From Methanosphaera sp. (GTDB lineage: Archaea > Methanobacteriota > Methanobacteria > Methanobacteriales > Methanobacteriaceae), in assembly GCA_021199865.1 (NCBI GenBank), contig JAJQHG010000075.1, positions 1 through 36,790 on the forward strand: DNA of 36,790 nucleotides, written 5' to 3'. Each line of letters starts with the position of its first letter. Positions within the stretch are counted from its first letter, which is position 1. A model generated the notes under the pieces. It was not told the DNA's origin, did not search any database, and saw only the letters and a program-made list of their open reading frames with translations. The position numbers were made by a program, and so were the translations under genes. Shown here one piece after another: positions 7,457 through 27,698 of this stretch.

Positions 7457-8245
7457 TTAGGATATTCCTTTCAACTGATTTAAACATTCTTTCTTATTCT
7501 TAGAACGCATCAAAGTTTCACCAATGAGTACAGCATTTACTCTATTATCTCTCAGTTTAGATATATCTACAGCAGTCTTAATACCACTTTCTGCTACAAA
7601 GATGATATCGTTTGGAACTTGCTTTCTTAAAGCTATGGAATTATTTATATCCACTTCAAAAGTTTTTAAGTTTCTGTTATTTACTCCGATAACTCTAGCA
7701 CCACCATTTAAAGCAGATTTAACTTCTTCACTGTCATGAGCCTCTACTAGAGCAGTTAGACCTAAACTATCGCATATGGATATATACTTTTTAATAGTAG
7801 ATGTATCTAGCAACGAACAGATTAATAATACAGCTTTTGCACCGACCGTATGAGCCTCATAAATCATGTATTCGTCTATAGTGAAATCTTTTCGTATAGT
7901 TGGAATGTTTACAACCTCGTTAATCTCTTTTAGATACTTAATATCACCTTTAAAATACTCAGGTTCAGTGAGTACAGATATACAATCTGCACCCACCTCT
8001 TGATATTCCTTAGCTATCTCAATATATGGAAAGTCTTTAGCTATCTCGCCTTTAGAGGGTGATGCCTTTTTAACTTCACATATAAAGGCAACATCATTCA
8101 ATTTGTTGAGTGCTTTTTCAAACTCAAAACTAGATTTTGGTAGCGATAGTGCTTTTGATTTCATCTCATCTATAGAGATATTTTTTTTACACTCTGCGAC
8201 ACGTTTTCTTGTGCAATCCGCAAGAGTATCTAAAATATTAGCCAT
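7457..8245 (-). CDS. trpC: indole-3-glycerol phosphate synthase
   Basis: ICEVKKASPSKG, SVLTEPEYFKG, RKDF, IGVNNRNLKTF, AESGI. Confidence 0.96.
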   Translation of the reverse strand: MANILDTLADCTRKRVAECKKNISIDEMKSKALSLPKSSFEFEKALNKLNDVAFICEVKKASPSKGEIAKDFPYIEIAKEYQEVGADCISVLTEPEYFKGDIKYLKEINEVVNIPTIRKDFTIDEYMIYEAHTVGAKAVLLICSLLDTSTIKKYISICDSLGLTALVEAHDSEEVKSALNGGARVIGVNNRNLKTFEVDINNSIALRKQVPNDIIFVAESGIKTAVDISKLRDNRVNAVLIGETLMRSKNKKECLNQLKGIS

Positions 8246-8544
8246 TATTCTTCTTCCTCGGCAGTTTCTTCTTCAAGAAAGTCTATATCTTCTGTAGTTT
8301 CCATAGGATTTTCTTTCTTAGTATTTTTTATATTGTCTAGTTCATCAGTTAAGTTTTCTAGTTCGTCAGTTAAATCTTCAAGTTCTTCGGTAATGTTGTT
8401 TAAATCATCTTTGATAGTATTTAGCTTATTTTGAATCTTTCTTTTAACACTAGTGTTATTACTCTTAATGTAATATATAGTCGCACATAGATTAAATACA
8501 GTTAATACAAAAGTAACTATCTTAATTAAAGTTTTCTTATCCAT
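8245..8544 (-). CDS. hypothetical membrane-anchored coiled-coil protein inside the trp operon
   Basis: 99 aa with an AGGAGG RBS, an N-terminal hydrophobic helix, heptad repeats and an acidic tail. Its stop overlaps the trpC start (TAATG). Confidence 0.75.
   Translation of the reverse strand: MDKKTLIKIVTFVLTVFNLCATIYYIKSNNTSVKRKIQNKLNTIKDDLNNITEELEDLTDELENLTDELDNIKNTKKENPMETTEDIDFLEEETAEEEE
8340..8402 (-). repeat. degenerate 21-nt tandem repeat (3 units) encoding heptads
   Basis: gttcatcagttaagttttcta / gttcgtcagttaaatcttcaa / gttcttcggtaatgttgttta, encoding LNNITEE-LEDLTDE-LENLTDE. Confidence 0.6.
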
Positions 8545-10189: not shown

Positions 10190-11643
10190 TAGTCATTCAC
10201 CTCCATAGCACCTAGTATAGCATTTATACAAGCCTTAGCCTTATTTTCACTTTCAAGATATTCATTTTCAGGGATACTATCTGCAACTATACCACCACCA
10301 GCTTGAATATATACTCTGTCATTCTTTTTGACAGCCATTCTAATGGCTATACAAGTATCAAGATTTCCAGTGAAGTCTATATAACCTAAAGCACCACCAT
10401 AGATACCTCTAGGTAGATTTTCAATCTCTTCAATGATTTCACAAGCTCTAATCTTAGGTGCTCCCGATAGAGTTCCAGCAGGTAGTATAGAGTTTACACA
10501 ACTATACGCATCATATTCCGATTTTAACTTTCCTTGCACTTCTGAGCAGATGTGCATAATCTTTGAATACTTTAGGACTTCCATATACTTAGTAACTTCA
10601 ACTGAGCCTATTTTGGATATCTTTCCAATGTCATTACGTCCTAAATCCACTAACATATTATGTTCTGATAGTTCCTTTTCATCTTTCATAAGACCTTCTT
10701 CAAGTTCCAAATCTTCTTTATATGTTATACCTCTAGGACGTGAACCAGCTATTGGGAAAGTAGTAACAGTGCCATCTACTAACTTTACTAGTGTTTCTGG
10801 TGATGTAGACATCAATTCCACATCATCGGTTTTCATAAAGACCATATATGGTGATGGATTAGTAGTTCTTAATACTCTATATGCATTGATTAGACTATCT
10901 TTATATTCACATTCAAAACGCCTTGATATTACTGCCTGAAATATATCACCATCAATGATATACTGTTTAGTTTTTTCAATCTTCTTGCAGTAGGCTTCTT
11001 TAGATACACTACAAGTAAACTTAGGTTTAGTAGTTACTGGGAAATTACCTGTAGGCATATCAGTTATTAACTTTTCAAGTTCTCTAATATCTGTAAGAGC
11101 CTTTTCATAATTCTTATCCACATTATCAGTAGACATATTTACTACTATACAGATTTTCTGTTTTAGATGGTCATATGCTATAACCTTATCAAAGAGCATT
11201 AAATCATAGTCGTTGAAATCACTTTCCTTTAGATTTAGAATAGGTTCAGCATAGCCAATCATAGCGTATGAGAAGTATCCGACAAGACCACCAGTAAAGG
11301 TAGGCATATCTTTAAGTTTGGGAGCTTTATACTGCGACATGATATCCCTAAGTGTATCATAAGGTTCAAGTTCACTGATAGTTTTTTCACCATCTTTTTC
11401 AATGGTAACTACATGATTTTTACAAGTAACTCTAACTATTGGATTAAATCCTAGGAAACTATACCTACCCCATTGAGTACCTTGTTCTACACTTTCTAAT
11501 AAGAAATACTTATCATACTTATTAGCAATCTTTCTTAAAAGTGTGATAGGTGTAATAACATCTGCATAGATTTCCCTACACACTGGAATGATAGTATAAT
11601 CTTTAGAAATTCTATCTATTAAGCTATAATCTGGCTTAATCAT
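10189..11643 (-). CDS. trpE: anthranilate synthase component I
   Basis: FLLESVE, GRYSF, GDIFQAVIS, NPSPYM, EHNMLVDLGRND, PAGTLSGAPK, QAGGGIVADS. Confidence 0.96.
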   Translation of the reverse strand: MIKPDYSLIDRISKDYTIIPVCREIYADVITPITLLRKIANKYDKYFLLESVEQGTQWGRYSFLGFNPIVRVTCKNHVVTIEKDGEKTISELEPYDTLRDIMSQYKAPKLKDMPTFTGGLVGYFSYAMIGYAEPILNLKESDFNDYDLMLFDKVIAYDHLKQKICIVVNMSTDNVDKNYEKALTDIRELEKLITDMPTGNFPVTTKPKFTCSVSKEAYCKKIEKTKQYIIDGDIFQAVISRRFECEYKDSLINAYRVLRTTNPSPYMVFMKTDDVELMSTSPETLVKLVDGTVTTFPIAGSRPRGITYKEDLELEEGLMKDEKELSEHNMLVDLGRNDIGKISKIGSVEVTKYMEVLKYSKIMHICSEVQGKLKSEYDAYSCVNSILPAGTLSGAPKIRACEIIEEIENLPRGIYGGALGYIDFTGNLDTCIAIRMAVKKNDRVYIQAGGGIVADSIPENEYLESENKAKACINAILGAMEVND

Positions 11644-11688
11644 GATATATAATCACCCTTCCATGATATAAAAATTTTCCATATAAAT

Positions 11689-11724
11689 AAAAAAGCTTTT
11701 ATCCCAAAAACATGGGACAAAAGC
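11689..11724 (-). terminator. T-box attenuator terminator
   Basis: Minus strand GCTTTTGTCCCA-tgttt-TTGGGATAAAAGC followed by a T-run. It overlaps the 3' arm of the antiterminator. Confidence 0.85.
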
Positions 11725-11975
11725 AATAAAATGTAACTTCTGCGATACCACCCAAATTGCTATATGTATTAAACATATAACCACTCTTTTATGCACAACC
11801 ATGCACACTCTATTGATAACGGGTTGAGTTCCCGTCAGTTACTACTTATGATTAAAAACCATGTTCGGACTGCCCTCACAGAACCATTCAAAAAAGATTT
11901 CCTATTAGCTTACACCAACCGCTAACTCTCTGTAAGTGAAATGCTTAATCTACTATCTCTGCTCAAAGGTTTAAT
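11690..11975 (-). ncRNA. T-box riboswitch (Trp specifier) in the trpE leader
   Basis: Minus strand shows stem I AGTA and AGAGAG..GGTG motifs, a GAA-TGG specifier (TGG at 11886-11884), the stem IIA/B CCGTTA motif and the T-box AATTTGGGTGGTATCGC (~11758-11742). The antiterminator pairs GGG/CCC and GCAGAAG/CTTTTGT. Confidence 0.9.
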
Positions 11976-12048
11976 TATATTATTTCAATTCACACTCGAC
12001 ATATTATCTGAGTGCGACGTACATACATTTAAACTAAAACTATAATAT

Positions 12049-12078
12049 ATTATACTCTACAAGTTAGTATTTTGTCAA
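12049..12078 (-). promoter_or_regulatory. SigA-type promoter of the trp operon
   Basis: Minus strand TTGACA (12078-12073), 18 nt, TATAAT (12054-12049). Confidence 0.7.
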
Positions 12079-12145
12079 TGGTCATATTGCATAAAAAAAT
12101 GAAATCAATATATGCAATATATACAATTATGGAACGTAGAACACA

Positions 12146-15100
12146 TTAAAACAACGTCATCTGTTCTGTTTTCATAGAGATATGCTCTAGGCGACTGTTT
12201 TTGCTAACATCTCCACTGATGATAGGTTTCTCGATTTTAAGATAAGATTTATTGCTGTAAAGTGGAGTCTTTAATGCAAGTTGATAGATAACGTTGAATT
12301 GATTGGTAATCGAGCTTTGATTTAAATCTGAAAGGCAGATAAGCTGGCATTTAAACTTCTTTGAAACTGCAATCATAGCATCAAGAAACGTTTTTGAAGA
12401 AGTTTTTCCAAAAGGATTATCAATTATAAATACTTTGGAAAAAGTTTCATTTGAACCGTTTGATTCTGAAATTCTATGACGTTCATAATCTATTAACGTG
12501 GAGATAAAAGCAAATGCTGAAATAAACATCTGTGCACCTGAATTTTGAACGATAACATCTTCCCATTTTCGTAGACTTCCAATTCCGTTAGTAGCATCGA
12601 CAGTATAAAGCTTAACGGGAATATGTCTTTTTCCGATAACAATGTTGAGAAGTTCACGGTTGGAAAAAGTTTTTTCAATTTTCTTGCGGAGAAGTTGTTT
12701 ATTATTAACAGCATCAAAATTTTCCTCACGTAGACTTATTAAAAAGTTCTGAAGTGCAATACGCATTGCATTTTCACATTCAGGGTCTGGCTTTTCGGGA
12801 ATATCTATAAAAAGGGTCTGTCGATTTTTTCCATCAAGTTTAACTCTTGAGAGGTTTGACATATCACGGACTTCACTAAAAATTTTCTTACCTTGTTCAA
12901 GAGCCTGTCTAATAAAGATACTCTTCTGATTTTCTATGTTTTCAAGATTATGTTTTGCTAAATTCAACTCATCTTGTAGATATTTACAGCAATCCTTTAC
13001 ACGTTCGTAAATAGGAAAAGTATGTTCAAAGCTGTCGGCATTTTCGGGGGTCATATTTGAAATAAAAGACGTAATTACTTCGTACTCACAATTAGAATAG
13101 TCTGAGCGTACTTTATTGTAGGTACTCTGAAGTTTTTTGTATATTTTGTCAGTTTTCCTCTTATGATTATTCAGTGTATCTATCAATTCCGTTGGATTTA
13201 TCTCATCGATGTTGTCTGTAAAAAAAGAGTGTTTCTTTTTAAGATTATCGCAACTATGATACAACTGATTGTATTTGTTTCTGCATTTCTGCGAAAATTT
13301 TTCATTGTTATTTATTTTTTCGACTATAATTTTTTCCCTATTTTCAAGGAGCTTTTTGCGTTCATTGAAATTTTTCTTTATCTTGCTCATTTCAAGAGGA
13401 TTGTTATAGTCATTATCTTTAAGATTCTTTTCTGTCGCTTTAAATCTTTCATCATATATGATAAGTTCTTTTTCAAGAGTTGTATATTTATTATTTGCCT
13501 TTGAAAGTTCTGCTTCTTTTTCATCTTTATTCTTTTCAGCCATCTCAAAAATTCTTTCGTTGTAGAGAATCTTTTCATACTCTTCACTGTTGACATTAAG
13601 CTTGTTGAGTTCTTTTAATCTATCTGTAGCAGTTTCTTCATATTCCTCAATAGCACTTTCTATTGCTTTTCGACTTTGAGCCTTGTCATTTAAGATACTC
13701 TCATATTCAGCTTCCATTTGCTCGATAGAAATTTTGAGCATATTTCCAATAGTATTGTTATCAAGTTTGGAAAGTTTTCTTTTTGTATTTGAAATAGTTT
13801 CCTCTTTACTGCGTATATTCTCAATGTTATTGCTTTTTTCGGCATTAATTTCGGTAATATCTGATTCAGTTTTTCTTAATCTTTCGTCATTAATATTTAT
13901 ATCTGTTTCAGTTTTGGAAAGTTTTTCTCTGTTAGAAATAAATATCTCATTTTCGGAAAGATAGTTTTCAAAGCACTGCTTATTCTGATTATTCATGCGG
14001 AACTGTTCTTTTAAATTGATAATATCAAACTGTAAATCATTTTTGTTGTTAGTAGCAGTATCTCTTTCAGATTTTATCATATTTATTCTTTCGTCATCGG
14101 AAATAATATGGCTTTTGGTTTCATTTAGTTCACTGTTTTTGGAAGGTAAAAAAGTACTGTCATACTTAAAACTAAGATAATCTTTTTTTGCCAATGAAAG
14201 TTCTTCGAGTTTTGATTTAAGTTCACCTATATTTTTCTCGATTTTTTTCATTTCTCCGTTGAGTTTCTCAAGATATAACTTCTTTCGTTCTTCGTCAATG
14301 CATTCCTTGTTGTAAAGACAAACGAACATACTTTTTTCATCAAGTTCAGCAATTTTTGGAATGTGACTTATATTACGTTGAATATCTTCAAATGTAATAA
14401 TGGGAACAGCTTTATTGACGTTTTCACTGAAAACAGTTTTCTTTATACACTGATAATCTTTTTCCTTAACAATATAGCTAAAGGGGAGCATTGGATTTAC
14501 TTTAAGAAGTAGTTCTCTTTGTTTATCGCTTTTTTCTTCTGCAAGATACTTTTCACCTGTTTCATAATCAATGTTATGTGCATCGAGAATTGCTGAAAAT
14601 TCAGGTGAGGTATGAACTGCACCATTATTTACTGCACTTCGATAAGTTTCTTTTGCATGATAATCTCGTTGAAATTCATCTAATCTTTTCTTATATTTTT
14701 TCTCTTGAAAGTCGATGCTAATCAGATTTATTTCACTATTGTAAAGTTCGCTTTCACTTAAATTGAAAAACTTTAAAGCACTTACTGCCTTTGACTTTGC
14801 TTTTTCAAATTCAGCGATTATGTTCTTTATTTCCAAGCATTTTATATCCAGTTGATGTTTTTCATCTGTCAGTGTAGATTCCTCATTATTAAGGCTTGTT
14901 ATTTTTTCAGAAAGTTTTTCAATTTCAGAATTTTTTGCATTAATAGTGTCGTTTATCAATTTTTTTTTATTTTCGAAGTCAGTTTGTATTTTTAAAATAT
15001 CGTTTTTGTCGTATTCTCCGAGAAAATCTCTTGCAAGGGAAATGTTAAGCTCTTTGAAAACGTTCTGTTCATATTTTTCGAACTGGTCTATCTTGCTTGA

Positions 15101-16492
15101 AAGTTTGCCTTTTTCGGTAAGAAGTACATTATTTATTTTTGTGATTTCTATCTTTTCTAAGGAAAGCTTTTTAATTCTCTTATCTATTTCCATGTTTCTT
15201 TTTACAAGTGATTCAAGTTGGCTTTCTGTTTCATTTATAAGTGCAGAGTAAACATGATTTAATGAAAATACAAGGTCATTGTATCTTGAATTATCATTTT
15301 CTCCTATAAGTTTAGCAAGAGTTATTTTTTTAGCCTCAGCCTTTCCTTTATATTTTTTGTATTCGCCGTAGAGCTTTGTAGCATTCAGTATATTGATACG
15401 TTTTTCTGCTTCATTGTATAAGTTTTGTGCATTTTCCAAATCAATCTGTGCATTTTCAGTTATTTTTTTTTGATTCTCGAATAAATTAAGAGCGGTATAA
15501 TAATCGTCTGAAAGCTTTTCGTATCTTATTATTTCGGTTTGAGTTTTAATCTGTTCAAGTTCATCTTTGCAGTGTTCAGTATTTTCATCGGTAGATTTTG
15601 AACTGTTTAACAGAAAATAATAGATATCAGCAATGTTTTGTTGATGCTGTTCAGTAGCATCATAGCCTTCCATAAGTTCATTTAGATTATCTATGTAACC
15701 GTCCACATCGTTTAAAAAACGTTCATAATATTCTTTGCTACGTAAGATTTCATCGTTGCTATCTATTTCTTCAATTAAGGCACTGAACGTTTCATGAAGA
15801 TTATTTCCGAGTCTTAAGTTGTTGACGATTGTCTTTAGAATCCATTCATCGAAAAGCTTATCAGATGTTTTTATATTCTTAAACAGTTCAGAAATACCGC
15901 CTTCTGTTTCGTTACAGTTTGCGATTGTTTTCCATTCATTTGAATATATACCGTTTTCAGCAAGTTTTTCAAAGTAGTGGTCTTTATTGTCGGGGTGAAA
16001 GTAGTCGAAATCAGTTCCCGATTTAACATTGTTGCGAATGATAGTCCTACATTTTTCATACGATTCAAATGAAACACTTCGACCATTATGGACTATGAAC
16101 GGAACACTCTCAATATCAAACTTACAAGCATCTGTATAGCGGTTTGTGAAAGTAAAATAATTTATTTTTGAAGTGTTGCTTTCATCTGCTGAGGATTTTT
16201 TCATAACGATTCCCGTTAGAAAATATGTAGGAACGGATACGTTGTCGAGCTTCCACTCTATAAAAATAAATGAAGGTTGCTTAGAATAAAGATATGACTC
16301 CATGTTTCTGTCATGAATTTTAATACATGGATTCATAGGTTGCATCATAAGTTGAACTAATACACTTTTTCCACTTCCATTTTTGAGGTTAATTAACATA
16401 TTTTCGCAGTTATAGGAATCATAAATTTCGTCCATGATATATTTTCCATCATATAGAATATTCGCAATTCGGATTCTGTTAATTTTAGGCAT
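12146..16492 (-). CDS. jetC: SMC/MukB-like coiled-coil ATPase, Wadjet JetC (type III-like)
   Basis: 1448 aa with an N-terminal Walker A (LKNGSGKS), very long coiled coils, a C-terminal ABC signature-like NSGAQ and Walker B/D-loop FIIDNPFG. Last gene of a tightly coupled four-gene operon. Confidence 0.85.
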   Translation of the reverse strand: MPKINRIRIANILYDGKYIMDEIYDSYNCENMLINLKNGSGKSVLVQLMMQPMNPCIKIHDRNMESYLYSKQPSFIFIEWKLDNVSVPTYFLTGIVMKKSSADESNTSKINYFTFTNRYTDACKFDIESVPFIVHNGRSVSFESYEKCRTIIRNNVKSGTDFDYFHPDNKDHYFEKLAENGIYSNEWKTIANCNETEGGISELFKNIKTSDKLFDEWILKTIVNNLRLGNNLHETFSALIEEIDSNDEILRSKEYYERFLNDVDGYIDNLNELMEGYDATEQHQQNIADIYYFLLNSSKSTDENTEHCKDELEQIKTQTEIIRYEKLSDDYYTALNLFENQKKITENAQIDLENAQNLYNEAEKRINILNATKLYGEYKKYKGKAEAKKITLAKLIGENDNSRYNDLVFSLNHVYSALINETESQLESLVKRNMEIDKRIKKLSLEKIEITKINNVLLTEKGKLSSKIDQFEKYEQNVFKELNISLARDFLGEYDKNDILKIQTDFENKKKLINDTINAKNSEIEKLSEKITSLNNEESTLTDEKHQLDIKCLEIKNIIAEFEKAKSKAVSALKFFNLSESELYNSEINLISIDFQEKKYKKRLDEFQRDYHAKETYRSAVNNGAVHTSPEFSAILDAHNIDYETGEKYLAEEKSDKQRELLLKVNPMLPFSYIVKEKDYQCIKKTVFSENVNKAVPIITFEDIQRNISHIPKIAELDEKSMFVCLYNKECIDEERKKLYLEKLNGEMKKIEKNIGELKSKLEELSLAKKDYLSFKYDSTFLPSKNSELNETKSHIISDDERINMIKSERDTATNNKNDLQFDIINLKEQFRMNNQNKQCFENYLSENEIFISNREKLSKTETDININDERLRKTESDITEINAEKSNNIENIRSKEETISNTKRKLSKLDNNTIGNMLKISIEQMEAEYESILNDKAQSRKAIESAIEEYEETATDRLKELNKLNVNSEEYEKILYNERIFEMAEKNKDEKEAELSKANNKYTTLEKELIIYDERFKATEKNLKDNDYNNPLEMSKIKKNFNERKKLLENREKIIVEKINNNEKFSQKCRNKYNQLYHSCDNLKKKHSFFTDNIDEINPTELIDTLNNHKRKTDKIYKKLQSTYNKVRSDYSNCEYEVITSFISNMTPENADSFEHTFPIYERVKDCCKYLQDELNLAKHNLENIENQKSIFIRQALEQGKKIFSEVRDMSNLSRVKLDGKNRQTLFIDIPEKPDPECENAMRIALQNFLISLREENFDAVNNKQLLRKKIEKTFSNRELLNIVIGKRHIPVKLYTVDATNGIGSLRKWEDVIVQNSGAQMFISAFAFISTLIDYERHRISESNGSNETFSKVFIIDNPFGKTSSKTFLDAMIAVSKKFKCQLICLSDLNQSSITNQFNVIYQLALKTPLYSNKSYLKIEKPIISGDVSKNSRLEHISMKTEQMTLF

Positions 16493-16495
16493 GAT

Positions 16496-17164
16496 TTATC
16501 CCTCCGTATAAAACATTTCATTAATCTCTTTAACTCTGTCATTTGAAAGATAGTAGTTTATCATAAGGTCATCAAGACGTTGAGTGGTTCTTATTTCAGT
16601 GCCGTTATCCAGAATGGTTATTAGTTTCTGATTTTCAAGGAATCTACAAGCAGACATAACCGTTCCATAACGAGTAGAGCGTTTTTCCTCATCGAAGATA
16701 GTTTTGCTCACCCATAACTCTTTTATATCTTTGAAGTTTACCAAATAGTGTTCCTGTATTTCATCTACATCAACTGTTGAAAAACGCTTGTCAGTTTCGG
16801 CAACAATGTCTTTTATTTGTAAAAATTCAGTATTTTTTGGGTTTGTATTCTTTCCACCAAAAAACAGATACAGAATAAACATAACTATGTAGCATTGCAG
16901 ATAAGCATCTGCAAGACGTGCACTTGCGTTTATGCTCATTCTGATATCTTTCATCGTAAAGCCAATCATGGGATTATCAGGTTTTGGAACAATATAAATA
17001 TCATGTGGAAGTTCTACCAAATCGAAATCCAGTTCTTTAGCTATAATATGTATTTGATTATTTGTTTCCTCATTCCAATAATCGTAGAACAACTCTCTGT
17101 CAGAAACATTGTTGATGTTTCCATTACATACAAGTTTTTTATATATTTTAAGTGCCTTAGTCAT
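16496..17164 (-). CDS. jetB: Wadjet JetB (MukE/kite-like, DUF6063-like)
   Basis: 222 aa immediately upstream of the SMC ATPase with a 3-nt gap. Size and position fit the kite subunit, and the C-terminal helix-strand pattern is winged-helix-like. Confidence 0.7.
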   Translation of the reverse strand: MTKALKIYKKLVCNGNINNVSDRELFYDYWNEETNNQIHIIAKELDFDLVELPHDIYIVPKPDNPMIGFTMKDIRMSINASARLADAYLQCYIVMFILYLFFGGKNTNPKNTEFLQIKDIVAETDKRFSTVDVDEIQEHYLVNFKDIKELWVSKTIFDEEKRSTRYGTVMSACRFLENQKLITILDNGTEIRTTQRLDDLMINYYLSNDRVKEINEMFYTEG

Positions 17165-18732
17165 TAAAATTCACCTCAAAAATTAGATTATTTATGCTAG
17201 TTCTAAATTTAACGACCGTATCATTTCCCATAGAAACAGTATATGATATTATATCGTCACTCTTATGAACTGTTATCTTGTTTATTTTGTAAAAATCATT
17301 TTGCTCAGAGAAAACTTTGAAGAGGCAGTAAGAAAGGTCAAATTCACCTGTAGCCTCTGTTGAAATTTCGTCCTCATTTTTTTTCCATGTAGATATATCG
17401 AGCGTTCCAAATTCATATAGTTTAAGAAATACTATGTATGTATTTTTATCCGAAAGCATTTCATAGAAATTTCCATCTTTTCTGAGATAGTTTAGAAAAT
17501 CTTTCAATGTAAACCTTTTATTCTGCGATGCAAAATGTAGAAGTTCACCGATAAGCCTTACATATTCCGTACTTTGTTTTTCTTTTTTAGTAATCTCTGT
17601 ATCTTCCGTAAAGTTAGGTTCTTCATGAATATTTGTTTCATGTATACTTTCGGCTATAGACTGTTCGGAGTATAACTCTGTAACGTTAAGGCTTTTTTTG
17701 AGCTGTATCTTCATAAGGGGAGTCAAGAGCCTATTAATTTTTTCCATATCATTCACACCACCATTTTCGAGTGGAGTTAGGATATATTTTTCAAAATCGT
17801 ATGTTTTTTTATGCATATAGCGAATCACGTAGCATTTCAACATATATTTCCTTTGTTTTTCTGCATTGTATAATTAAGTCACGTTGTAACTTAAGAGCAA
17901 TTTCAACATTGTTTTCAATCATTGCAACTTCTTTTTTTGCATTTACTTCCTTTTCACTGAGTTCACCGTAACTAGTTTCTTCTTCATTTAGTCTTTTCTT
18001 TGAAAGGTCAATCATTTTGTGAATATCCTGCATTGTACTGTATTCCTGCTCTAGTGTTTGATTAATATCGTTCAGTAAACTAATATATTCTTCAGAGTCA
18101 ACCTGTTTTAAATTATTACGGAGTCTTTTTTCAAACAGTATAAGCTGATTTTCTTTATTTCTTAGCATCTGTATAAGTTCACGGCTTTGTGAAACAGCTT
18201 TTTTGTAGTTCTTCTTTTGTATCAAAAGTTTAAGTCTAAACTCTTCCATTTTAAAACCAAGTTCATCGTCGATTTCTTTTGTGCGAAATAGAAAATTATA
18301 TCCTTGTGAAGTAAGTTTGTAGCCGACCTCTTTTTCTGCTATCATATAATCCTCGATAAGCATAACGGAAATTTCAGACAAACTACCTTTTTCATAGTTC
18401 ATAACGCCGTAGTTATGAACTTTGCCATTACTTCGTAGAATATCCTTAATAAGATATCTTGTTACAGTTTCAATCTGTTGAAGAGAAAGCTGTTTATTAT
18501 AATATGGCATAATATCTTTAAGAAAACTGCTAATTTCACTTAAGGTACATTCTCTGTCCTCGGAAAGAGTACATTCCATTATAAAAACAAGGATTGAAAA
18601 AAGTATGTTATCAATTTCAAAGGGTTCAAACCATGATTCTATTTCAGTATTTTTATTTCTACGGTTTACAATTGAATCAATAACAGCCACAAATTCCATG
18701 CGGTTCTGAAAACGTTCAAGGTAATCTTTCAT
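17157..18732 (-). pseudogene. jetA: Wadjet JetA (MukF/kleisin-like), split by a frameshift into 307-aa and ~220-aa parts
   Basis: ORFs 18732-17809 and 17843-17157 overlap in different frames. Adding 2 nt at CTATATGCAT gives a single 525-aa frame (..RDSLYMHKKTYDFEKYIL..). Lies between jetD and jetB. Confidence 0.7.
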
Positions 18733-18736
18733 TATA

Positions 18737-19783
18737 TCATTTCCTATCTGTAATAAGATTTTCGAGAATATTTTTATTCAAAGCTTCTTGTGGAATATAT
18801 CTGCCATCTGAAAGAATCCACTTGATATTTTCAACGGTTTCTCCGCAAAAGTCTTGAAGAAATAGTGTAATATCAACTTCTTTCTGTTGTTTTTCGACCT
18901 TTCTAAGAGATGTTAAGTTACTAAGTTCAATCAGTTTCACATAGAGCTTTGAAAAAAGCTGTAAATCAAAATCTGTACTTTGTTTTTTTAGCGTTTGATA
19001 GATACCGATTCCTTCATAATCCAAATCACCGAAGTATAAGAAATCGCATTTATGTTTAAGTTCAGTTTCGCAGAAATCGGAGAGTGAAAAACTTTCACGA
19101 ATAACTTTCTTTCCTTCTCCATAAAGAATTCCATCAATTTTATGTTCGAAGAGTACTACTGAGTCATTTACATTACGCATTATTTCACGGAACGAATACC
19201 AAGTATCCTTATTTTCAATAATTAAAACCGTATTTTCTGAAAATCTATTCTTTTCTGGGGTGTAGTAAAAAAACGGTTCAGGGGTATTGTAATAGTTCAG
19301 TTTTTCTCTGAGATTATTCAGTTCAATTATTGTTTTAGCTGTTGGACTGTCAAGAGTTTTTTCATAATTCCATATTTGATATGCTCGTTCATTCTTTGAA
19401 ATACGCCAATTTAGTTTATCTGAATAATCTTTCAAGAAATCACTGAGTGGAAGTATTATTTCACGCTGTTGCTTATATTTATTAACGTTTTTTAGATAAT
19501 AAGAAATACAGAATGAACCCTCAAGATGCTTTATTTCACTTATCAAATCGCTATTATCGGTTTTAGGTTTCAAAATACGATATTTAGTATAAAGTGGAGG
19601 AATCTTGCCATTTGTGAAATCTTTTTTTATAATAGGCTTTATAATACCCTCGCTAATCAACTTAGAAATACAGTCGTGCTGTTCATGATAGTTTTTAAAA
19701 TTAATAAAAGCTGTCAATTCATCAAGTGATATGTATGTTTTACTGTATTGAAAAAGCTTATCTTTTAAATGATTATTACTCAT
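18737..19783 (-). CDS. jetD: Wadjet JetD, Toprim (topoisomerase VI-A-like, DUF2220) nuclease
   Basis: Toprim motifs VLIIENKDT (conserved E) and LYFGDLDYEGIGIY (DxD), plus LYGEGK and a C-terminal YIPQEAL. AAGGAG RBS. Confidence 0.85.
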   Translation of the reverse strand: MSNNHLKDKLFQYSKTYISLDELTAFINFKNYHEQHDCISKLISEGIIKPIIKKDFTNGKIPPLYTKYRILKPKTDNSDLISEIKHLEGSFCISYYLKNVNKYKQQREIILPLSDFLKDYSDKLNWRISKNERAYQIWNYEKTLDSPTAKTIIELNNLREKLNYYNTPEPFFYYTPEKNRFSENTVLIIENKDTWYSFREIMRNVNDSVVLFEHKIDGILYGEGKKVIRESFSLSDFCETELKHKCDFLYFGDLDYEGIGIYQTLKKQSTDFDLQLFSKLYVKLIELSNLTSLRKVEKQQKEVDITLFLQDFCGETVENIKWILSDGRYIPQEALNKNILENLITDRK

Positions 19784-19816
19784 TTTTTACTCCTTGTTTT
19801 GAATAATATTGTTTTT

Positions 19817-19845
19817 ATTATATCACAATTTACTCAAAATGTCAA
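19817..19845 (-). promoter_or_regulatory. consensus SigA promoter of the jet operon
   Basis: Minus strand TTGACA (19845-19840), 17 nt, TATAAT (19822-19817), with an extended -10 TGTG-n. Confidence 0.8.
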
Positions 19846-19883
19846 TCTAAAATTTAAATCAACACTAAATTTTGAGATATTCT

Positions 19884-19926
19884 AAAAAATGCCAAACAAA
19901 GTAACTATCTTTGCTTGGCATTTTTT
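19884..19926. terminator. intrinsic terminator downstream of the thioesterase
   Basis: AAAAAATGCCAAACAAAG-taactat-CTTTGCTTGGCATTTTTT, with A/T runs on both sides. Confidence 0.85.
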
Positions 19927-19959
19927 GTATAAGTCTTACACAACAGACGTTTCATATGA

Positions 19960-20358
19960 TTAACTATTTTTAAGTAGTTTTGAATCTGCTTTGTTTTGGA
20001 ATTTTTCTGCGAACACTATAAATCGAGTGTGTGTACCTTCACCGATTAATCCGACCTCATCGAACGCTTGAACTTTTAGAGTAATCTTTCTATTGTTTAC
20101 TGTTATCACCTCAGCGGTAGCGTATACCTCTAAGCCGATAGGTGTTGCAGATACATGAGTAATATCTAAAGCAGTACCTACGGTAGTAGCACCATTATCG
20201 AGATATCTTTCTAATGCCATAGTAGATGCTTTTTCCATAATAGCTACCATAGATGGTGTAGCAAAGACATCTAAAGAACCACTGCCCATAGTTTTAGCGG
20301 TATTAGATTTATCAACCATAACCTTATATGTTGCTTTTGTACCTATTTCGATATCCAT
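19960..20358 (-). CDS. hot-dog fold thioesterase, fluoroacetyl-CoA thioesterase (FlK)-like
   Basis: MGSGSLDVFATPSMVAIME, TVGT..ITHVSATPIG, IGEGTHTRFIV. The Thr/Glu/His catalytic residues are present. Confidence 0.88.
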   Translation of the reverse strand: MDIEIGTKATYKVMVDKSNTAKTMGSGSLDVFATPSMVAIMEKASTMALERYLDNGATTVGTALDITHVSATPIGLEVYATAEVITVNNRKITLKVQAFDEVGLIGEGTHTRFIVFAEKFQNKADSKLLKNS

Positions 20359-20385
20359 AGATAAACCTCCTTATATTTATAATAA

Positions 20386-22311
20386 CTATTCTATAGAAAC
20401 TTCTTCTGATTCAAGTTCATCGGTTTCATATTGAGCGTACTCAACTAAATCTTGCCCCGATACGTTATCACCTAAGATTCTATCGTACGTAAGGATATCT
20501 AAATCCTCATCGTTAGGCATATCGGTATCATAGCTAGTGGAGTATATTGGAAGTGTTTCCATTTTATCTAACATCGATTGAATGAAACTGTCCTTAGGAG
20601 CATCAATCAAATCCCAGATTACATATGGAAGATAGAACGTTGAAAACTTTTCTGTAGGCATATTAGAATAATCCAAGTCGTAGTTGCTCCAAATGATATA
20701 GTTCTGTTCGAACATCACTTGACAGTTTTCGCTATTTACTCCCATAAGGTCATATACGTTGTTTTCGCCACGCATAGATGGAAAGTGGTCACCTATGAAT
20801 ACTACCACAGTAGGTTCATCTATAGAACTTAGATAGTCTATAAATGATTGTAAAGCATCACCAGTGATGCGAATGTTATTTAGATAGTTAGTAATCTCAT
20901 CGTCAGGATTTTCACCATTGGTATATGGTTGATGGTTCTGCATGGTAGTAGTATGTACATATAAAGGTTCTTCAGAATCTTCAATTAAACTTTCTATTTG
21001 ACGAAATACGGTATCATCGGTTATGTAGTCATCGAGATATTCTATAGGAACGGTAAAGTCATCTTGGAAAATCATAGTATCGAAACCGAATTGAGAGTAT
21101 ACTTTCTTGCGGCTATAGAACGAAGATAAGAATGGGTGTACATAAGCGGTTTGATATCCTAAATGGTGATAGTATTGAACCATAGTAGGCTGTTCACGAG
21201 TTAATAACATTCTTTGAGGCATATTAGGGTCATTTAAAGATTTTACAGGTAGACCGAATAGAAGTTCAAACTCAGTTTTAACAGTAAAACTAGCATAGGT
21301 TGGAACTATTGCAGTGCCTTTGTAACCTTCTGATGCTATACTATCAACCTTGTCATAAGCGTCAGTATCGAGATTTAACTCATCAAAGACTCTAAAGTCG
21401 GCGAAACTTTCGGACATAATCTGTATTACATTAGGTTTAATGCTGTCGCTTTCACCTATACTTAGTATCTCATCAAGGGTATCTTCTTCGTTTTGATTGT
21501 CACCATCTTCGTCTAAGATATCATCTACGGCATCTTCGGTATAGTCTTGAGGTTCTTCTAACTTGTTAGAGATATTTTCCGTAAAAGTCTGTAGAAAGAA
21601 TGCTATAAAGTTATTATTTTCGAACTTTTCATTTACTAAAAAAGCATTGTCAGACTTTGTAGTATCCACATCGAATACGGCATATACCACGTTAGATACA
21701 CTAGGAACTCCAATTATTAGTACACACGAACAGAAAGATATTATCATAGGAATAAATCTTTTCTTGAAAGAGTTCTTTAACTTAGGATTAAACCAAAAAC
21801 AAGCACCTATATAGATAATTAGTAGTAATGCATAGGTTATCAACATAGGAGTTATCTTGATATACGCAAAAGATGTCAAACTTTTAACACTTCGAAATAG
21901 TTTCATATCGGTTAGTATTAAATGATTTCCATTAGTGCCATACTTAAATAGCTCAGCTGTACTTAGGGAAAAGTATACTATGCCTTGAATCAATACAGCC
22001 CAAAAACCTTTTCTAAATAGCAGATACAGTGTGTAGAATATTATTGAAGATATAAAGATATCGAACATAAATATAGTAGGTTTTTCCACTATGAACATTA
22101 TTAATTTACTAGGATATTTGCATTGATTAATCTCTGCTATTAATACTATGAATATAGGGAATAGTATGGTCAATAGCAGATTGGTAGCCCTATAGGTTTC
22201 AGAGTTTAAGTTTCTACGTTCATTCAATCGAGATATTCTATCACGAAGTTTAAAAAAGGTTGTCTTTAACCTTTCTTTCAAGGAAGTTCCTTCTAAGTTT
22301 AGAGTTTGCAT
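20386..22311 (-). CDS. LTA synthase family / sulfatase-like membrane protein
   Basis: About five N-terminal TM helices followed by KPNVIQIMSESF, TVKTEFELLFG, TTMQNHQPY and VVFIGDHFP. Confidence 0.88.
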   Translation of the reverse strand: MQTLNLEGTSLKERLKTTFFKLRDRISRLNERRNLNSETYRATNLLLTILFPIFIVLIAEINQCKYPSKLIMFIVEKPTIFMFDIFISSIIFYTLYLLFRKGFWAVLIQGIVYFSLSTAELFKYGTNGNHLILTDMKLFRSVKSLTSFAYIKITPMLITYALLLIIYIGACFWFNPKLKNSFKKRFIPMIISFCSCVLIIGVPSVSNVVYAVFDVDTTKSDNAFLVNEKFENNNFIAFFLQTFTENISNKLEEPQDYTEDAVDDILDEDGDNQNEEDTLDEILSIGESDSIKPNVIQIMSESFADFRVFDELNLDTDAYDKVDSIASEGYKGTAIVPTYASFTVKTEFELLFGLPVKSLNDPNMPQRMLLTREQPTMVQYYHHLGYQTAYVHPFLSSFYSRKKVYSQFGFDTMIFQDDFTVPIEYLDDYITDDTVFRQIESLIEDSEEPLYVHTTTMQNHQPYTNGENPDDEITNYLNNIRITGDALQSFIDYLSSIDEPTVVVFIGDHFPSMRGENNVYDLMGVNSENCQVMFEQNYIIWSNYDLDYSNMPTEKFSTFYLPYVIWDLIDAPKDSFIQSMLDKMETLPIYSTSYDTDMPNDEDLDILTYDRILGDNVSGQDLVEYAQYETDELESEEVSIE

Positions 22312-22522
22312 AAAAAATCACCTTAATTCAGTTCTATTGTATAGATTTCTTTCTATCTAAATGATAATATATCACAGTAACTAAGATTTTTCAAGAGATT
22401 TTTATGAATTTTTAACATTTCATCACATTGCACAAAATATTAAAATCCTATGGAGTTTCCTTTTAAACTATGCTATAATATAGTAATGAATATAAATTTT
22501 ACCTAAGAAAGGAGTTCTATCT

Positions 22523-23233
22523 ATGTTAGCCGTAGTTACGGGAGGTTCTAAAGGTATTGGAGAAGCTATTTGCAGGCAACTCGCTAACGATGGTTACACT
22601 GTAGTAGTAAACTATAATAGTAGTGGATTACAAGCAGAACGCATCGCTAATGAGATAGGTGGATATTCTTATCATGCAGATATCTCTAATTTGGAAGAAG
22701 TTAAATCTATGATAGACTATACTATTCAAAACTTTGGGAATATAGACTTATTAGTAAACAATGCAGGGATATCTGTAGTAGGGTTGTTCCATGAGATTTC
22801 ACAAGTAGACGTTAAGAAAATCTTAGATATAAACTTAAATGGCGTATTTAACTGTACCTCTGAAGTGGTTAAGCATATGATATCTAAGAAGAGTGGTAAC
22901 ATTATAAACATATCATCTATGTGGGGTGAAGTAGGGGGTTCATGTGAGGTACATTATTCTGCTACAAAGTCAGCTATAATAGGATTCACTAAGGCACTAG
23001 CTAAAGAGGTTGGACTATCTGGAATTAGAGTAAACTGTGTATCTCCAGGAGTTATAGACACATCTATGAATGAACATCTTACCGAAGATGATATAAACTC
23101 ACTTAAAGAGGAGATTCCATTATACAGGTTAGGTACTCCACAAGATGTAGCGAACGTAGTAAGTTTTCTAGCATCTGAGAGAGCATCTTATATAACTGCT
23201 CAAGATATTGCAGTGAATGGTGGTATATGTTAA
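22523..23233 (+). CDS. ymfI: short-chain dehydrogenase/reductase, FabG-like, YmfI (EF-P 5-aminopentanone reductase) subfamily
   Basis: TGGSKGIG, LVNNAG, YxxxK (YSATK). The segment ISSMWGEVGGSCEVHYSATK is typical of YmfI-like proteins. Confidence 0.7.
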   Translation: MLAVVTGGSKGIGEAICRQLANDGYTVVVNYNSSGLQAERIANEIGGYSYHADISNLEEVKSMIDYTIQNFGNIDLLVNNAGISVVGLFHEISQVDVKKILDINLNGVFNCTSEVVKHMISKKSGNIINISSMWGEVGGSCEVHYSATKSAIIGFTKALAKEVGLSGIRVNCVSPGVIDTSMNEHLTEDDINSLKEEIPLYRLGTPQDVANVVSFLASERASYITAQDIAVNGGIC

Positions 23234-23271
23234 TTGAAAGTTTCAAATTAAGCTTTACGGGGGGATATCTA

Positions 23272-23718
23272 TTGAAAGTATATCGAGCAGACAATAACTG
23301 CATGATATTTATTAAGATAATTATAATATTAGTAATGTTAGGTGTAGACATAGTATCATATATATATCTACAAAGTTATAAGTTGATAATGTATATATTA
23401 ATGGGTAGTATAACGGTGTTAGGGATATTCTTTGCATCGATATATGTACCTTTGTACTTCAAAAGGATATCTTTTAAGGTAAGCAAAGATATTCTATCTA
23501 AAAAGAGTGGTTTCTTTATTAAGACTAATCAGACTATGAAAGTTTCATCTGTTCAGTATGTAACTTCTATATATATTCCTCTGTTTAGATATATTGGTTT
23601 TAACTTTATAATCTTTAATGCCTTAGGAGGTCACTTAATCTTTAGTTTTTTAAGTAAGCAAGATAGTTCCGAAATATTGGAGCTTATCGATAATCAGATT
23701 AATGAAGGAGGTTCTTAA
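23272..23718 (+). CDS. bacterial PH-domain membrane protein (YdbS-like)
   Basis: Two TM helices followed by KKSGFFIKTNQTMKVSSVQYV. Probable TTG start at 23272 after a G-rich RBS. Paired with a YdbT-like gene. Confidence 0.7.
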   Translation: MKVYRADNNCMIFIKIIIILVMLGVDIVSYIYLQSYKLIMYILMGSITVLGIFFASIYVPLYFKRISFKVSKDILSKKSGFFIKTNQTMKVSSVQYVTSIYIPLFRYIGFNFIIFNALGGHLIFSFLSKQDSSEILELIDNQINEGGS

Positions 23719-23719
23719 T

Positions 23720-24919
23720 ATGAAACGTCAGCACCCTTTAAAGATGCTCTCATACTCAGCAAAGAACCTTTGGTTATTGATATTCCCCCTACTTAGAGGC
23801 TTATTTTCTATACATTTTGGTGATGCTAAAGCTCTATTAGATTGGTTCGCTGGTGCTTGGTTCGATATATTAACCTTACTGATAATACTATTTACTGGAT
23901 ATATTAGATGGCAGTTTTCACGCTTTAATATTAAGGATAATCAAATAGTGTTCTCAAATGGTGTAATCGTTAGAACTAGAAAAGTTATCCCATTGAAGAG
24001 TATATCTGCGGTTACAGAGGAAAAGTCTTTCTATTTAAGACCTTTTAAGGCTACTAAGGTATTGGTAAACACTCGTGCAGGTACTTTGGATAAAGATTTA
24101 TCCTTGATAGTTAATGAAGAAGTTCTACATTGGCTAAGAATGGCTATTGGTAGTAACGATGTAACTACTGATAATAGTAAATCTTTTGAGTATAAGCCTA
24201 ATTTTTGGCATACTTTCTTCTTTTCATTTATATTTTCAAGCACTCTAACGGGAGCAATCTATATCTTTGTATTTCTATTCAAAGCGGGTAGCATAGTAGA
24301 GCAATTTCTTCAACGTTCTGTACTAGATGAGTTTAACTTGGTTACTGAAACTGTCACCGATAAGTTAATGCTTAACGTATCGCCAATATTCGTTGGACTT
24401 TCTTTAATAATAGCTTTTAGTTGGATACTATCATTCATTACAAACATAGTTAGATATACTAAGTTTAGGATTAAGAAAAACTCTCAAGGAGTGTTTATTC
24501 GCACTGGAGTTATGACTAAACGTCGTTATAAGATATGTGAAAATATGGTTAATTATACAGACCTATGCCAAAGTTTTTGGACTAAAATATTTAAGTTTGT
24601 ATCTATAAATGTAAACTGTTCAGGGTATGGCTCTTCAACCGATGAGATTCCTGTATTTATACCTATAATGAGTAGAAAAAACTGTCAAAATACTGTATCT
24701 GCGATTATGCCTAATATGAAGATATATCCTAATAACTATAAGCCTCGTTGGACTAACTTTTGGCGTTATACTTATAAGGCAATAATTTCATGTGTGTTAG
24801 TATTGTCGATATACTTTATATCTATGTATTTCTTTCCAGATGCTATTAACATTATCAAGTTTTTAACTCTCATGGTAGAGTTACCTCTTATGTGGTATTT
24901 AATAATAAGTATAATATAA
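23720..24919 (+). CDS. multi-PH-domain membrane protein (YdbT-like), probably C-terminally truncated
   Basis: MKRQHPL start after AAGGAGG. Repeated TM-pair plus PH units (NGVIVRTRKVIPLKSI; TGVMTKRRYKI). Ends right after the third TM pair, without a final PH unit, next to the junction. Confidence 0.75.
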   Translation: MKRQHPLKMLSYSAKNLWLLIFPLLRGLFSIHFGDAKALLDWFAGAWFDILTLLIILFTGYIRWQFSRFNIKDNQIVFSNGVIVRTRKVIPLKSISAVTEEKSFYLRPFKATKVLVNTRAGTLDKDLSLIVNEEVLHWLRMAIGSNDVTTDNSKSFEYKPNFWHTFFFSFIFSSTLTGAIYIFVFLFKAGSIVEQFLQRSVLDEFNLVTETVTDKLMLNVSPIFVGLSLIIAFSWILSFITNIVRYTKFRIKKNSQGVFIRTGVMTKRRYKICENMVNYTDLCQSFWTKIFKFVSINVNCSGYGSSTDEIPVFIPIMSRKNCQNTVSAIMPNMKIYPNNYKPRWTNFWRYTYKAIISCVLVLSIYFISMYFFPDAINIIKFLTLMVELPLMWYLIISII

Positions 24920-25068
24920 TTTTATAAATACGGAGTATTTCATGTATATGTCTTGAGTAATTATTACTAAAAATAGGTATTAGTGGTTTAGTAGATTTAT
25001 ATAAAAAATAATAAAAAATAGTTTTTGGTGGTAAATCAAAAGAAAAAAAATATTAGAGAAATAGAGAT
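24920..25068. other. junction between bacterial and archaeal sequence
   Basis: Firmicute genes lie to the left and archaea-specific ribosomal and translation genes to the right. The flanking bacterial gene is truncated, and no mobile element is present. Confidence 0.85.
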
Positions 25069-25488: not shown

Positions 25489-25519
25489 GTTAATAACGCC
25501 TCAGTTATAAATGGCACTC

Positions 25520-25744
25520 TTATATTAATGATCTTACAATATGATCTGTGACTTCATCAGCACTAATCTCAGTAATCTCATCAAAAACAATCTGATTCCT
25601 GTTTAGTCTATGTTTACTACCAAATTCAGAGTATAGTTTTTCCTCAACATCAGCCTCTTTGACTGCCTTTAATTCCCTAGTAAACTTCTTAGTTTTATCA
25701 ACATCTAATAATTTTCCTTTTACTCTAAATATTTTTGTTTTCAT
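25520..25744 (-). CDS. rpl18a: 50S ribosomal protein L18Ae/LX (eL20)
   Basis: [30 protein letters not shown]. Confidence 0.93.
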
Positions 25745-27686: not shown

Positions 27687-27698
27687 AATTTATCAAGT

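What the first reader, a model, noticed from the sequence alone, without database searches (positions are those of the whole stretch)
12146..19845. Self-contained SMC + Toprim-nuclease defence cassette (Wadjet type III-like, jetD-jetA-jetB-jetC) between housekeeping genes
Seen: a 7.6-kb operon with gaps of 4 and 3 nt and an 8-nt overlap, driven by its own consensus promoter. It encodes a Toprim protein (E..DxD), two helical subunits and a 1448-aa SMC-like ATPase. Known: Wadjet/JetABCD (MksBEFG/EptABCD) complexes extrude DNA loops and cleave small circular plasmids, and nuclease-first gene order is reported for type III. Inference: this is a horizontally acquired anti-plasmid island, of a less-studied subtype, between the trp leader and a thioesterase gene.
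Basis: partly seen in the sequence, partly recalled or inferred. Interest (0 to 1): 0.75.

Follow-up and report, generated by a model that had tools for sequence, protein, structure and literature searches.

The report
Broken Wadjet-III cassette on chimeric contig
This is a four-gene bacterial defence cassette of a known family (type III Wadjet) that likely cuts small circular plasmids; one gene is broken in this copy, and the bacterial DNA carrying it was probably joined to an archaeal genome by an assembly error, so it is an ordinary family member and not a transfer between domains of life.

Summary
The operon is real: JetD3-JetA3-JetB3-JetC3 by PADLOC, with a perfect sigma-70 promoter. (1) jetA is split by a 5-nt deletion; two other assemblies have it intact, so this copy is likely inactive. 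(2) The contig sits in an archaeal genome bin, but bases 1-24917 are 99.8% identical to a Ruminococcus sp. MAG that continues past the join through the gene the join truncates. A chimeric assembly is most likely. (3) A sister species has the empty site; the cassette interrupts the thioesterase terminator, and the host has a separate canonical Smc. JetC has Asn in place of the catalytic Walker B Glu, as do all 89 homologues reaching that motif. The scan found this before on other DNA. This subfamily mostly also has Asp at the switch-His position. Verdict: new member of a known kind. Better side lead: a second, jetD-less type III jetABC operon in 6 of 11 genomes of the host genus.

The parts
19817..19845 (-). 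Sigma-70-type promoter of the cassette (TTGACA-17-TATAAT, extended TG)
   Evidence: 12 of 12 consensus match; same sequence in L010 and L011; activity untested
19884..19926 (.). Strong hairpin with A/T tails, predicted bidirectional terminator that came with the cassette and insulates it from the thioesterase gene
   Evidence: Inverted repeat I22; -21.9 kcal/mol, z -6.1; not in the G044 empty site
18737..19783 (-). jetD, Toprim nuclease, 348 aa (E190, D253, D255)
   Evidence: PADLOC JetD3 E 8e-88; Pfam JetD_C above cut-off; motifs invariant in 7 of 7
17809..18732 (-). jetA 5' piece, 307 aa (N-terminal winged helix and helical bundle)
   Evidence: PADLOC JetA3 positions 6-312 of 536, E 3e-99; MukF-like fold over residues 1-306 of the intact allele
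17157..17843 (-). jetA 3' piece, 228 aa (middle segment and C-terminal domain); frameshift from a 5-nt deletion near 17825
   Evidence: PADLOC JetA3 positions 315-535, E 1e-39; L010 and L011 carry 5 more bases, and L010 has one 526-aa ORF
16496..17164 (-). jetB, 222 aa, predicted KITE subunit (DUF6063)
   Evidence: PADLOC JetB3 E 6e-72; PF19539 E 4e-35; fold not predicted
12146..16492 (-). jetC, 1448-aa SMC ATPase: Walker A 38-43, Q-loop E79, signature SGAQ 1318-1321, Walker B D1358-N1359, switch position D1389
   Evidence: PADLOC JetC3 full length, E 6e-137; motif tallies; C-terminal head fold nearest to JetC-I and MukB
19945..19955 (-). Left arm of the ancestral thioesterase terminator (upstream boundary of the insertion)
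   Evidence: Aligns to the left arm of the intact G044 hairpin
12129..12137 (-). Right arm of the ancestral thioesterase terminator (downstream boundary), 9 nt after the jetC stop
   Evidence: Matches the right arm of the G044 hairpin, read from the sequences printed; the automatic alignment places this end only loosely
11710..12078 (-). trp operon promoter and T-box leader (host flank)
   Evidence: Rfam RF00230, 116.9 bits; 12 of 12 promoter match at 12078-12049
19960..20358 (-). FlK-type thioesterase gene (host flank)
   Evidence: PF22636; directly before the trp promoter in G044
24917..24918 (.). Join between bacterial DNA (1-24917) and archaeal DNA (24918-36790), most likely an assembly chimera
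   Evidence: Last base identical to L010 is 24917; the bPH_2 gene is cut to 405 of 486 aa; archaeal homology starts at about 24996

Best explanation
Window 12138-19944 is a type III Wadjet (jetD-jetA-jetB-jetC) cassette that was likely inserted into the thioesterase terminator of a Ruminococcus-type bacterium, is likely inactive in this copy because jetA is frameshifted, and probably reached an archaeal genome bin through a chimeric contig. Shown: gene identities, gene order, the frameshift, the empty site in a sister species, and near-identity of the whole left 24.9 kb to a bacterial MAG. Inferred from type I and II systems and one in vivo test of a type III operon: intact JetABC forms a dimer of SMC motors that loads on DNA and extrudes a loop; when a small circle (below about 50-100 kb) is fully extruded, the JetD Toprim dimer cuts it without sequence specificity, while the chromosome and linear DNA escape. 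The break falls at JetA residue 303, at the end of the helical bundle, and separates the dimerisation half from the predicted JetB-binding and cap-binding half; this would open the kleisin ring. How the ATPase works with Asn1359 in place of the catalytic Glu is untested.
For: Family. Host: 24,890 of the first 24,917 bases align to G041 (Ruminococcus sp. MAG) with 53 differing positions, 16 of 7,767 in the cassette and 37 of 17,123 in the flanks. G041 runs on beyond both ends with bacterial genes, completing malQ and the bPH_2 gene. A dispersed repeat at 11970-12029 has 18 matches in G041 and only this one in G000. All eleven 4-kb segments within 1-24000 score -1.343 to -1.358 under a G000 Markov model, below all 213 background segments (minimum -1.326), while segments from 26001 on fall inside the range. 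G000 has its own trp genes on C45 (5 of 5 tested) and its ftsY on another contig; ftsY follows pfdA in 15 of 21 related loci. Two public runs hold both the window's bacterial part and the bacterial continuation that the window lacks. Insertion: G044 has thioesterase, an intact hairpin (-16.8 kcal/mol, z -5.0) and the trp promoter in a row. Cassette GC is 30.8% against 33.7% in the flanks. Function by homology: the B. thuringiensis operon blocked plasmid transformation and conjugation in B. subtilis, dependent on the JetD glutamate (10.1101/2022.10.04.510915); that operon is labelled type III in 10.1101/2025.03.10.642339.
Against: No reads from the source assembly were examined, so neither the join nor the 5-nt deletion was checked at read level. 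No overlap was found between the join and any other G000 contig end, so the way the misjoin arose is not shown. ftsY was not seen after pfdA in 6 of 21 loci (2 of them too short). Only 1 of 10 other genus genomes has the exact empty site; G049 and G047 are rearranged there. Fold matches for the JetC head are modest (best Foldseek E 3e-4; VIA Z 7.8, rmsd 7.5, 279 aligned), and CorA helical bundles tie with MukF for JetA. No type III complex has been studied in vitro in the papers read, so loop extrusion is extrapolated.
Confidence: 0.85

Rival explanations
1. The join is real: a methanogen very recently took up 25 kb or more of Ruminococcus chromosome, including glycogen genes, a T-box trp operon and Wadjet-III.
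For: The assembler output one contig with no N at the join. Overall GC is similar on both sides (33.7% and 32.8%).
Against: The join cuts a bacterial gene mid-frame. No mobility gene was found among the 36 ORFs scanned. The DNA is 99.8% identical to the bacterium with no amelioration. No full-length JetC3 occurs in 23 other genomes of the archaeal genus; 7 of 23 give only weak coiled-coil matches. None of 40 relatives matches 11000-24990 beyond short AT-rich hits. Sigma-70 promoters and T-boxes are bacterial control elements (established knowledge).
Confidence: 0.04
2. The cassette is functional in the strain sequenced: either the 5-nt deletion is an assembly artefact, or JetA is made in two pieces that reassemble.
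For: L010 and L011 are intact and one X1 contig end carries the intact allele (only about 10 bases on one side, below the tool's bridging limit). The other three genes are intact, with 0-2 substitutions each against G041. The 3' piece has an in-frame ATG behind a purine-rich stretch.
Against: A clean 5-nt deletion between 2-nt repeats is more typical of a real slippage allele than of short-read error (inference). A severed kleisin generally inactivates SMC complexes (recalled, not from a call). All four subunits are needed for restriction (PMC10586767).
Confidence: 0.2
3. The operon is the host's chromosome-organising SMC (MukBEF/MksBEF-like) and not a defence system.
For: JetA and JetC folds resemble MukF and MukB. 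A related jetD-less operon is conserved across the genus.
Against: It carries a Toprim nuclease gene. G041, G044 and G047 each have canonical Smc above the TIGR02168 cut-off. G044 lacks the cassette at this site. JetB3 of this kind was found in 6 of 401 family genomes sampled. The conserved jetD-less operon is a different locus with 20-27% identity to this one.
Confidence: 0.03
4. Type III JetC, lacking the catalytic Glu, does not extrude loops by processive ATP hydrolysis; it acts as an ATP-bound clamp or slow switch that activates JetD by another route.
For: Asn at the catalytic position in 44 of 44 aligned and 89 of 89 homologues that reach the motif. The register to ABC 'DEP' and switch His is shown by HMM alignment. 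The E-to-Q change at this site abolishes hydrolysis and cleavage in type I JetC (10.1101/2022.10.04.510915).
Against: Walker A, Q-loop Glu, signature SG and Walker B Asp are invariant. The B. thuringiensis system restricts plasmids of both replication types like types I and II, though its JetC sequence was not examined here. The type II preprint expects type III to use the same extrusion-cleavage principle.
Confidence: 0.15

Closest known systems
Wadjet type III (JetABCD-III; PADLOC JetD3/JetA3/JetB3/JetC3; B. thuringiensis operon tested in B. subtilis)
   Same: Same four families, with models PDLC00592, 00562, 00576 and 00583 best for the four genes. Same D-A-B-C order as 5 of 5 other family loci, G052 and a Pontibacillus plasmid. 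DUF6063 JetB. Walker B 'DNP'.
   Different: jetA is frameshifted in this copy. Apart from the near-identical copies, the nearest JetC is 45% identical. Signature SGAQ (Ala in 15 of 44) and Asp at the switch-His position (39 of 44), where some other type III groups keep His.
Wadjet type I (E. coli GF4-3, P. aeruginosa PA14 JetABCD) and type II (Neobacillus vireti)
   Same: Kleisin, KITE, SMC and Toprim nuclease set. JetC head fold nearest to 8dk3/8dk2/9qxx and 9qe0; JetA best Foldseek hit is type II JetA 9qe0_E.
   Different: Nuclease gene first. Larger SMC (1448 aa). Catalytic Glu (E1022 in E. coli JetC) replaced by Asn. A 222-aa JetB, not the tandem KITE of type II.
MukBEF / MksBEF chromosome-organising SMC
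   Same: MukF-like N-terminal winged helix and bundle in JetA (9gm7_D: Z 12.3, rmsd 8.8, 255 aligned); MukB-like head.
   Different: Has a nuclease gene, is patchily distributed, and coexists with canonical Smc.

Membership tests
Wadjet type III | Four adjacent genes matching JetA, JetB, JetC and JetD type III models | tested here: met
   best model is type 3 for all five ORFs (E 1e-39 to 6e-137)
Wadjet type III | Operon order with jetD first (types are defined by sequence and operon organisation; the jetD-first rule itself is recalled from Doron 2018, which was not held) | tested here: met
   D-A-B-C here and in 5 of 5 other family loci, G052 and NZ_CP062975
Wadjet type III | JetD Toprim acidic triad E..DxD | tested here: met
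   E190, D253, D255 invariant in 7 of 7; equivalent to E248, D290, D292 described; PF09983 above cut-off
Wadjet type III | JetA is a MukF-like kleisin (intact allele from L010) | tested here: met
   Model pLDDT 87.9; the six Foldseek hits at E <= 0.001 are type II JetA and MukF chains
Wadjet type III (complete, functional system) | JetA encoded as one continuous polypeptide in this copy | tested here: not met
   5-nt deletion gives 307-aa and 228-aa ORFs; intact in L010 and L011. The copy is filed as a broken member.
Wadjet type III | JetB has the KITE tandem winged-helix fold | not tested
Wadjet type III | JetC is an SMC-type split ABC ATPase with long coiled coil | tested here: met
   Walker A at 38-43, signature and Walker B near the C-terminus; head fold matches JetC, MukB, SMC and Rad50
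Wadjet (any type) | Restricts or cleaves small circular DNA | not testable with these tools
   Needs transformation, plasmid-loss or cleavage assays
Canonical SMC/ABC ATPase active site (types I/II, MukB) | Catalytic Glu after the Walker B Asp | tested here: not met
   Asn in 44 of 44, aligned to 'DEP' of ABC ATPases; shared by all type III JetC examined, so it does not count against type III membership
Housekeeping MukBEF/MksBEF or Smc-ScpAB | Conserved across the clade as the main SMC, without a nuclease | tested here: not met
   JetD3 in 2 of 11 genus genomes; separate Smc in 3 of 3; empty site in G044
Archaeal Wadjet / cross-domain island | Locus truly resident in the archaeal chromosome | tested here: inconclusive
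   Strong indirect evidence for a chimera, but no source reads across the join were examined

The most novel reading that the evidence does not exclude
This Wadjet-III subfamily drives DNA loop extrusion with an ABC ATPase site that has lost both canonical catalytic residues (Glu to Asn1359, switch His to Asp1389) and uses the switch-position Asp as the general base: a rewired SMC motor chemistry, testable with the intact Ruminococcus allele.
Probability: 0.25. Interest if true: 0.65.

Novelty: new member of a known kind. Interest (0 to 1): 0.33.

Why it matters
As a locus it is ordinary: Wadjet occurs in about 5% of bacterial species and type III has curated models. It is useful in three ways. 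First, it is a cautionary case: the largest contig of an archaeal genome rated 0.12% contaminated carries 25 kb of bacterial chromosome, which would give false reports of Wadjet, a T-box and glycogen genes in a methanogen. Second, it gives a closely mapped insertion of a defence cassette without any mobility gene. Third, type III is described as largely uncharacterised, and its JetC lacks the glutamate that is essential in type I; this subfamily also lacks the switch histidine. The intact allele in L009/L010 makes that question testable. I found no paper stating the Asn substitution in three searches, but the library lacks most subscription papers and preprint supplements were not visible.

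Tried and rejected
Archaeal residence of the cassette: rejected as unlikely (see rivals). Runs X1 and X2 (one study) gave no cover over 24814-30500 and no contig bridged the join position in L010; holes in filtered contig sets prove nothing and were not used as evidence. No same-species archaeal locus was found: 14 metagenome pfdA loci were at most 71% identical, so the true neighbour of pfdA could not be read. No overlap of 16 nt or more between the join and another G000 contig end. G049's 8.9 kb between thioesterase and trpE looked like alternative defence cargo but is housekeeping genes such as purA, so a defence hotspot is not supported. A 5-bp direct repeat flanks the cassette (19938-19942 and 12141-12145); a target-site duplication cannot be told from chance at 82% identity to G044. 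No long terminal repeats. No match in 50,697 phage records; 3 distant JetC matches in 72,556 plasmids. NCBIfam gave no hit for the five jet ORFs. Sequence searches of PDB gave nothing useful for JetD or the JetC C-terminus; the JetC profile gave mostly coiled-coil noise plus type II JetC 9qe0. The hairpin upstream of the trp promoter is not significant (z -0.9). My early note that no other genus genome had such a cassette was wrong: G052 has a distant D-A-B-C cassette on another contig. The codon-usage test is partly circular because training included sister-species orthologues; it is supporting only. No complex prediction was run.
Full report
Observation. The operon reads on the minus strand: 348 aa, then 307 aa and 228 aa in different frames overlapping by 35 nt, then 222 aa, then 1448 aa. 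PADLOC assigns them to JetD3 (E 8e-88), JetA3 positions 6-312 and 315-535 of one 536-position model, JetB3 (6e-72) and full-length JetC3 (6e-137). Pfam adds JetD_C and DUF6063. NCBIfam gives nothing for these five.

Whose DNA it is. The window's right part encodes prefoldin alpha, eIF-6, L31e, S19e, Rpp21 and HMG-CoA reductase, which are archaeal; the left part has a T-box trp operon, glgP and malQ. The window is the first 36,790 bases of contig C144, the largest in G000, a 1.25-Mb bin. No call names G000; I infer a Methanobacteriales methanogen, probably Methanosphaera. A scan of species genomes with JetC returned 3 loci at 100% identity, from a 'Ruminococcus sp.' MAG (G041) and a 'Clostridiales bacterium' MAG (G042). 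G041 covers 24,890 of the first 24,917 bases with 53 differing positions. Identity stops at base 24917, inside a bPH_2 membrane-protein gene that is 405 aa in the window and 486 aa in G041, where a sensor-kinase-like gene follows on the opposite strand. Archaeal homology starts at about 24996. In 15 of 21 related archaeal loci pfdA is followed by ftsY; G000's ftsY starts 164 bases from the end of another contig. G000 has its own trp genes elsewhere. A dispersed repeat in the trp leader has 18 matches in G041 and one in G000. Every 4-kb segment within the first 24 kb scores below all 213 background segments of G000 in a Markov model, while the archaeal part of the same contig scores normally. 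No full-length JetC3 was found in the 23 other genomes of G000's genus. Two public runs hold the bacterial part and also the bacterial continuation absent from the window. I conclude that the contig is most likely a chimera; source reads were not examined.

The broken gene. Against L010 and L011 the window lacks 5 nt near 17825. The intact JetA is 526 aa. Its model (pLDDT 87.9, 100 sequences) has an N-terminal winged helix, a helical bundle ending near residue 308, a middle segment and a C-terminal domain. The six Foldseek hits at E <= 0.001 are type II JetA and MukF; VIA-align gives MukF Z 12.3 (rmsd 8.8, 255 aligned), tied with unrelated CorA bundles. The break at residue 303 separates the bundle from the rest. 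JetD, JetB and JetC differ from G041 by 2, 0 and 2 residues. Whether the deletion is a real strain allele or an assembly error is open; I favour a real loss-of-function allele.

Insertion site. Of 10 other genomes in G041's genus, G044 (81-82% identical flanks) has the thioesterase gene directly before the trp promoter. Its terminator hairpin folds at -16.8 kcal/mol (z -5.0). In the window the left arm lies at 19945-19955 and the right arm at 12129-12137, with the 7.8-kb cassette between them. The cassette brings a replacement hairpin (19884-19926, -21.9 kcal/mol) and its own promoter, and ends 9 nt after the jetC stop. It has no integrase or transposase gene. Its GC is 30.8% against 33.7% in the flanks, and its codon usage sits between the bacterial flanks and the archaeal genes. 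G047 and G049 are rearranged at this site. JetD3 was found in 2 of 11 genus genomes and this JetB3 type in 6 of 401 sampled family genomes, all with D-A-B-C order. G041, G044 and G047 have canonical Smc. These MAGs are incomplete, so misses are not proof of absence.

The ATPase. The model of JetC residues 1050-1448 (pLDDT 82.4) is nearest to type I JetC, MukB, type II JetC, SMC and Rad50, with modest scores. In 44 aligned sequences Walker A N-G-x-G-K, Q-loop E79, signature S-G and Walker B D-N-P-F are invariant. An HMM of this region aligns 'DNP' to 'DEP' and 'CLSD' to 'VSH' of ordinary ABC ATPases, so N1359 occupies the catalytic Glu position and D1389 the switch His position. Of 93 homologues have DNP and 4 end before the motif. 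At the switch position the pattern count was D 82, G 4, H 2, with 5 unmatched; more distant type III loci often keep His. In type I JetC the E-to-Q change blocks hydrolysis and cleavage (10.1101/2022.10.04.510915; passages). I saw the Asn; two earlier notes of this scan report it on other DNA. Three literature searches did not turn up a statement of it.

How it most likely works. By homology, intact JetABC is a dimer of SMC motors that extrudes DNA, and JetD cuts a circle once extrusion is complete, sparing large or linear DNA. This is shown for types I and II and only assumed for type III (10.1101/2025.03.10.642339; passages). The B. thuringiensis operon did block plasmid transformation and conjugation in B. 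subtilis in a JetD-dependent way (results section, first part). [quoted passage not shown] PADLOC's authors note that frameshifted jet genes occur and fail the strict definition (PMC9252829; passages). Doron 2018 was not held, so the jetD-first rule is recalled.

Side lead. A DUF6063 search showed a second type III jetABC operon in 6 of 11 genus genomes, including G041. The orthologues are 53-72% identical to each other and 20-27% to the window's proteins, match JetA3/B3/C3 and keep DNPF. No jetD lies next to them, and a JetD3 profile finds none in G044, G047, G049 or G051. In G041, G044 and G049 they follow the same GH9-dockerin gene. In G044 and G047 they are followed by a TPR-like protein of about 640 aa, an AAA_22/STAND-like ATPase of about 1550 aa and a 370-aa protein, none with a defence-model match; G049 has the first two up to its contig end. 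The lineage was found in 3 of 401 family genomes, all of this genus. It may be a domesticated, nuclease-free Wadjet-III core or one with different effectors. It is outside the window and untested.

Verdict. The locus is a new but broken member of a known system, on a contig that is probably chimeric. Interest 0.33; the catalytic-site question and the jetD-less operon are the parts worth pursuing.

Noticed in passing
window 24917/24918 (G000:C144): Bacterial-archaeal join inside a bPH_2 gene; 24.9 kb of Ruminococcus-type chromosome sits in an archaeal bin rated 0.12% contaminated. Any finding from window 1-24917 should be assigned to the bacterium.
   Followed up: yes
L105:6843-19001 and L111:394-7979 (G044:C28); also G041:C34, G047:C32, G049:C23, G051:C48, G052:C126: Second type III jetABC operon without jetD, conserved in 6 of 11 genus genomes. 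In G044 and G047 it is followed by a TPR-like protein, a 1500-aa AAA_22/STAND-like ATPase and a 370-aa unknown protein. Candidate nuclease-free or alternative-effector Wadjet-III.
   Followed up: partly
window 11970-12029: Truncated copy of a dispersed intergenic repeat of about 75 nt with a hairpin (z -3.9), 18 matches in G041 and none in G044, G047 or G049. Its 3' part resembles a type I-C CRISPR repeat (recalled likeness, no call). It is inserted between the trp promoter and the T-box.
   Followed up: partly
L011:1-4980 (G042:C50): A MAG of a different organism (thioesterase 41% identical, trp DNA 68%) holds a 99.7% identical contig made only of cassette DNA, starting at the cassette's terminator. 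Mis-binning or recent transfer; cannot tell.
   Followed up: partly
L110:296-7962 (G052:C62): Another D-A-B-C type III cassette in the same genus, 25-40% identical to the window's, on a contig that shows neither flank of the window's site; suggests an independent acquisition.
   Followed up: partly
window 8245-8544 (-): A 99-aa ORF with a hydrophobic N-terminus and acidic coiled tail sits inside the trp operon between trpD and trpC.
   Followed up: no
window 31527-33353 (-): Two adjacent paralogous archaeal membrane proteins (331 and 270 aa) with Asn/Gln/Pro-rich repeats and no Pfam match.
   Followed up: no
window 12146-12078: No terminator lies between jetC and the trp promoter, so cassette transcripts would run into the T-box leader.
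   Followed up: no
L061:4624-9741 (NZ_CP062975, Pontibacillus megaplasmid): Plasmid-borne type III operon with a 1705-aa JetC and a MerR-family gene upstream; also has DNPF.
   Followed up: no
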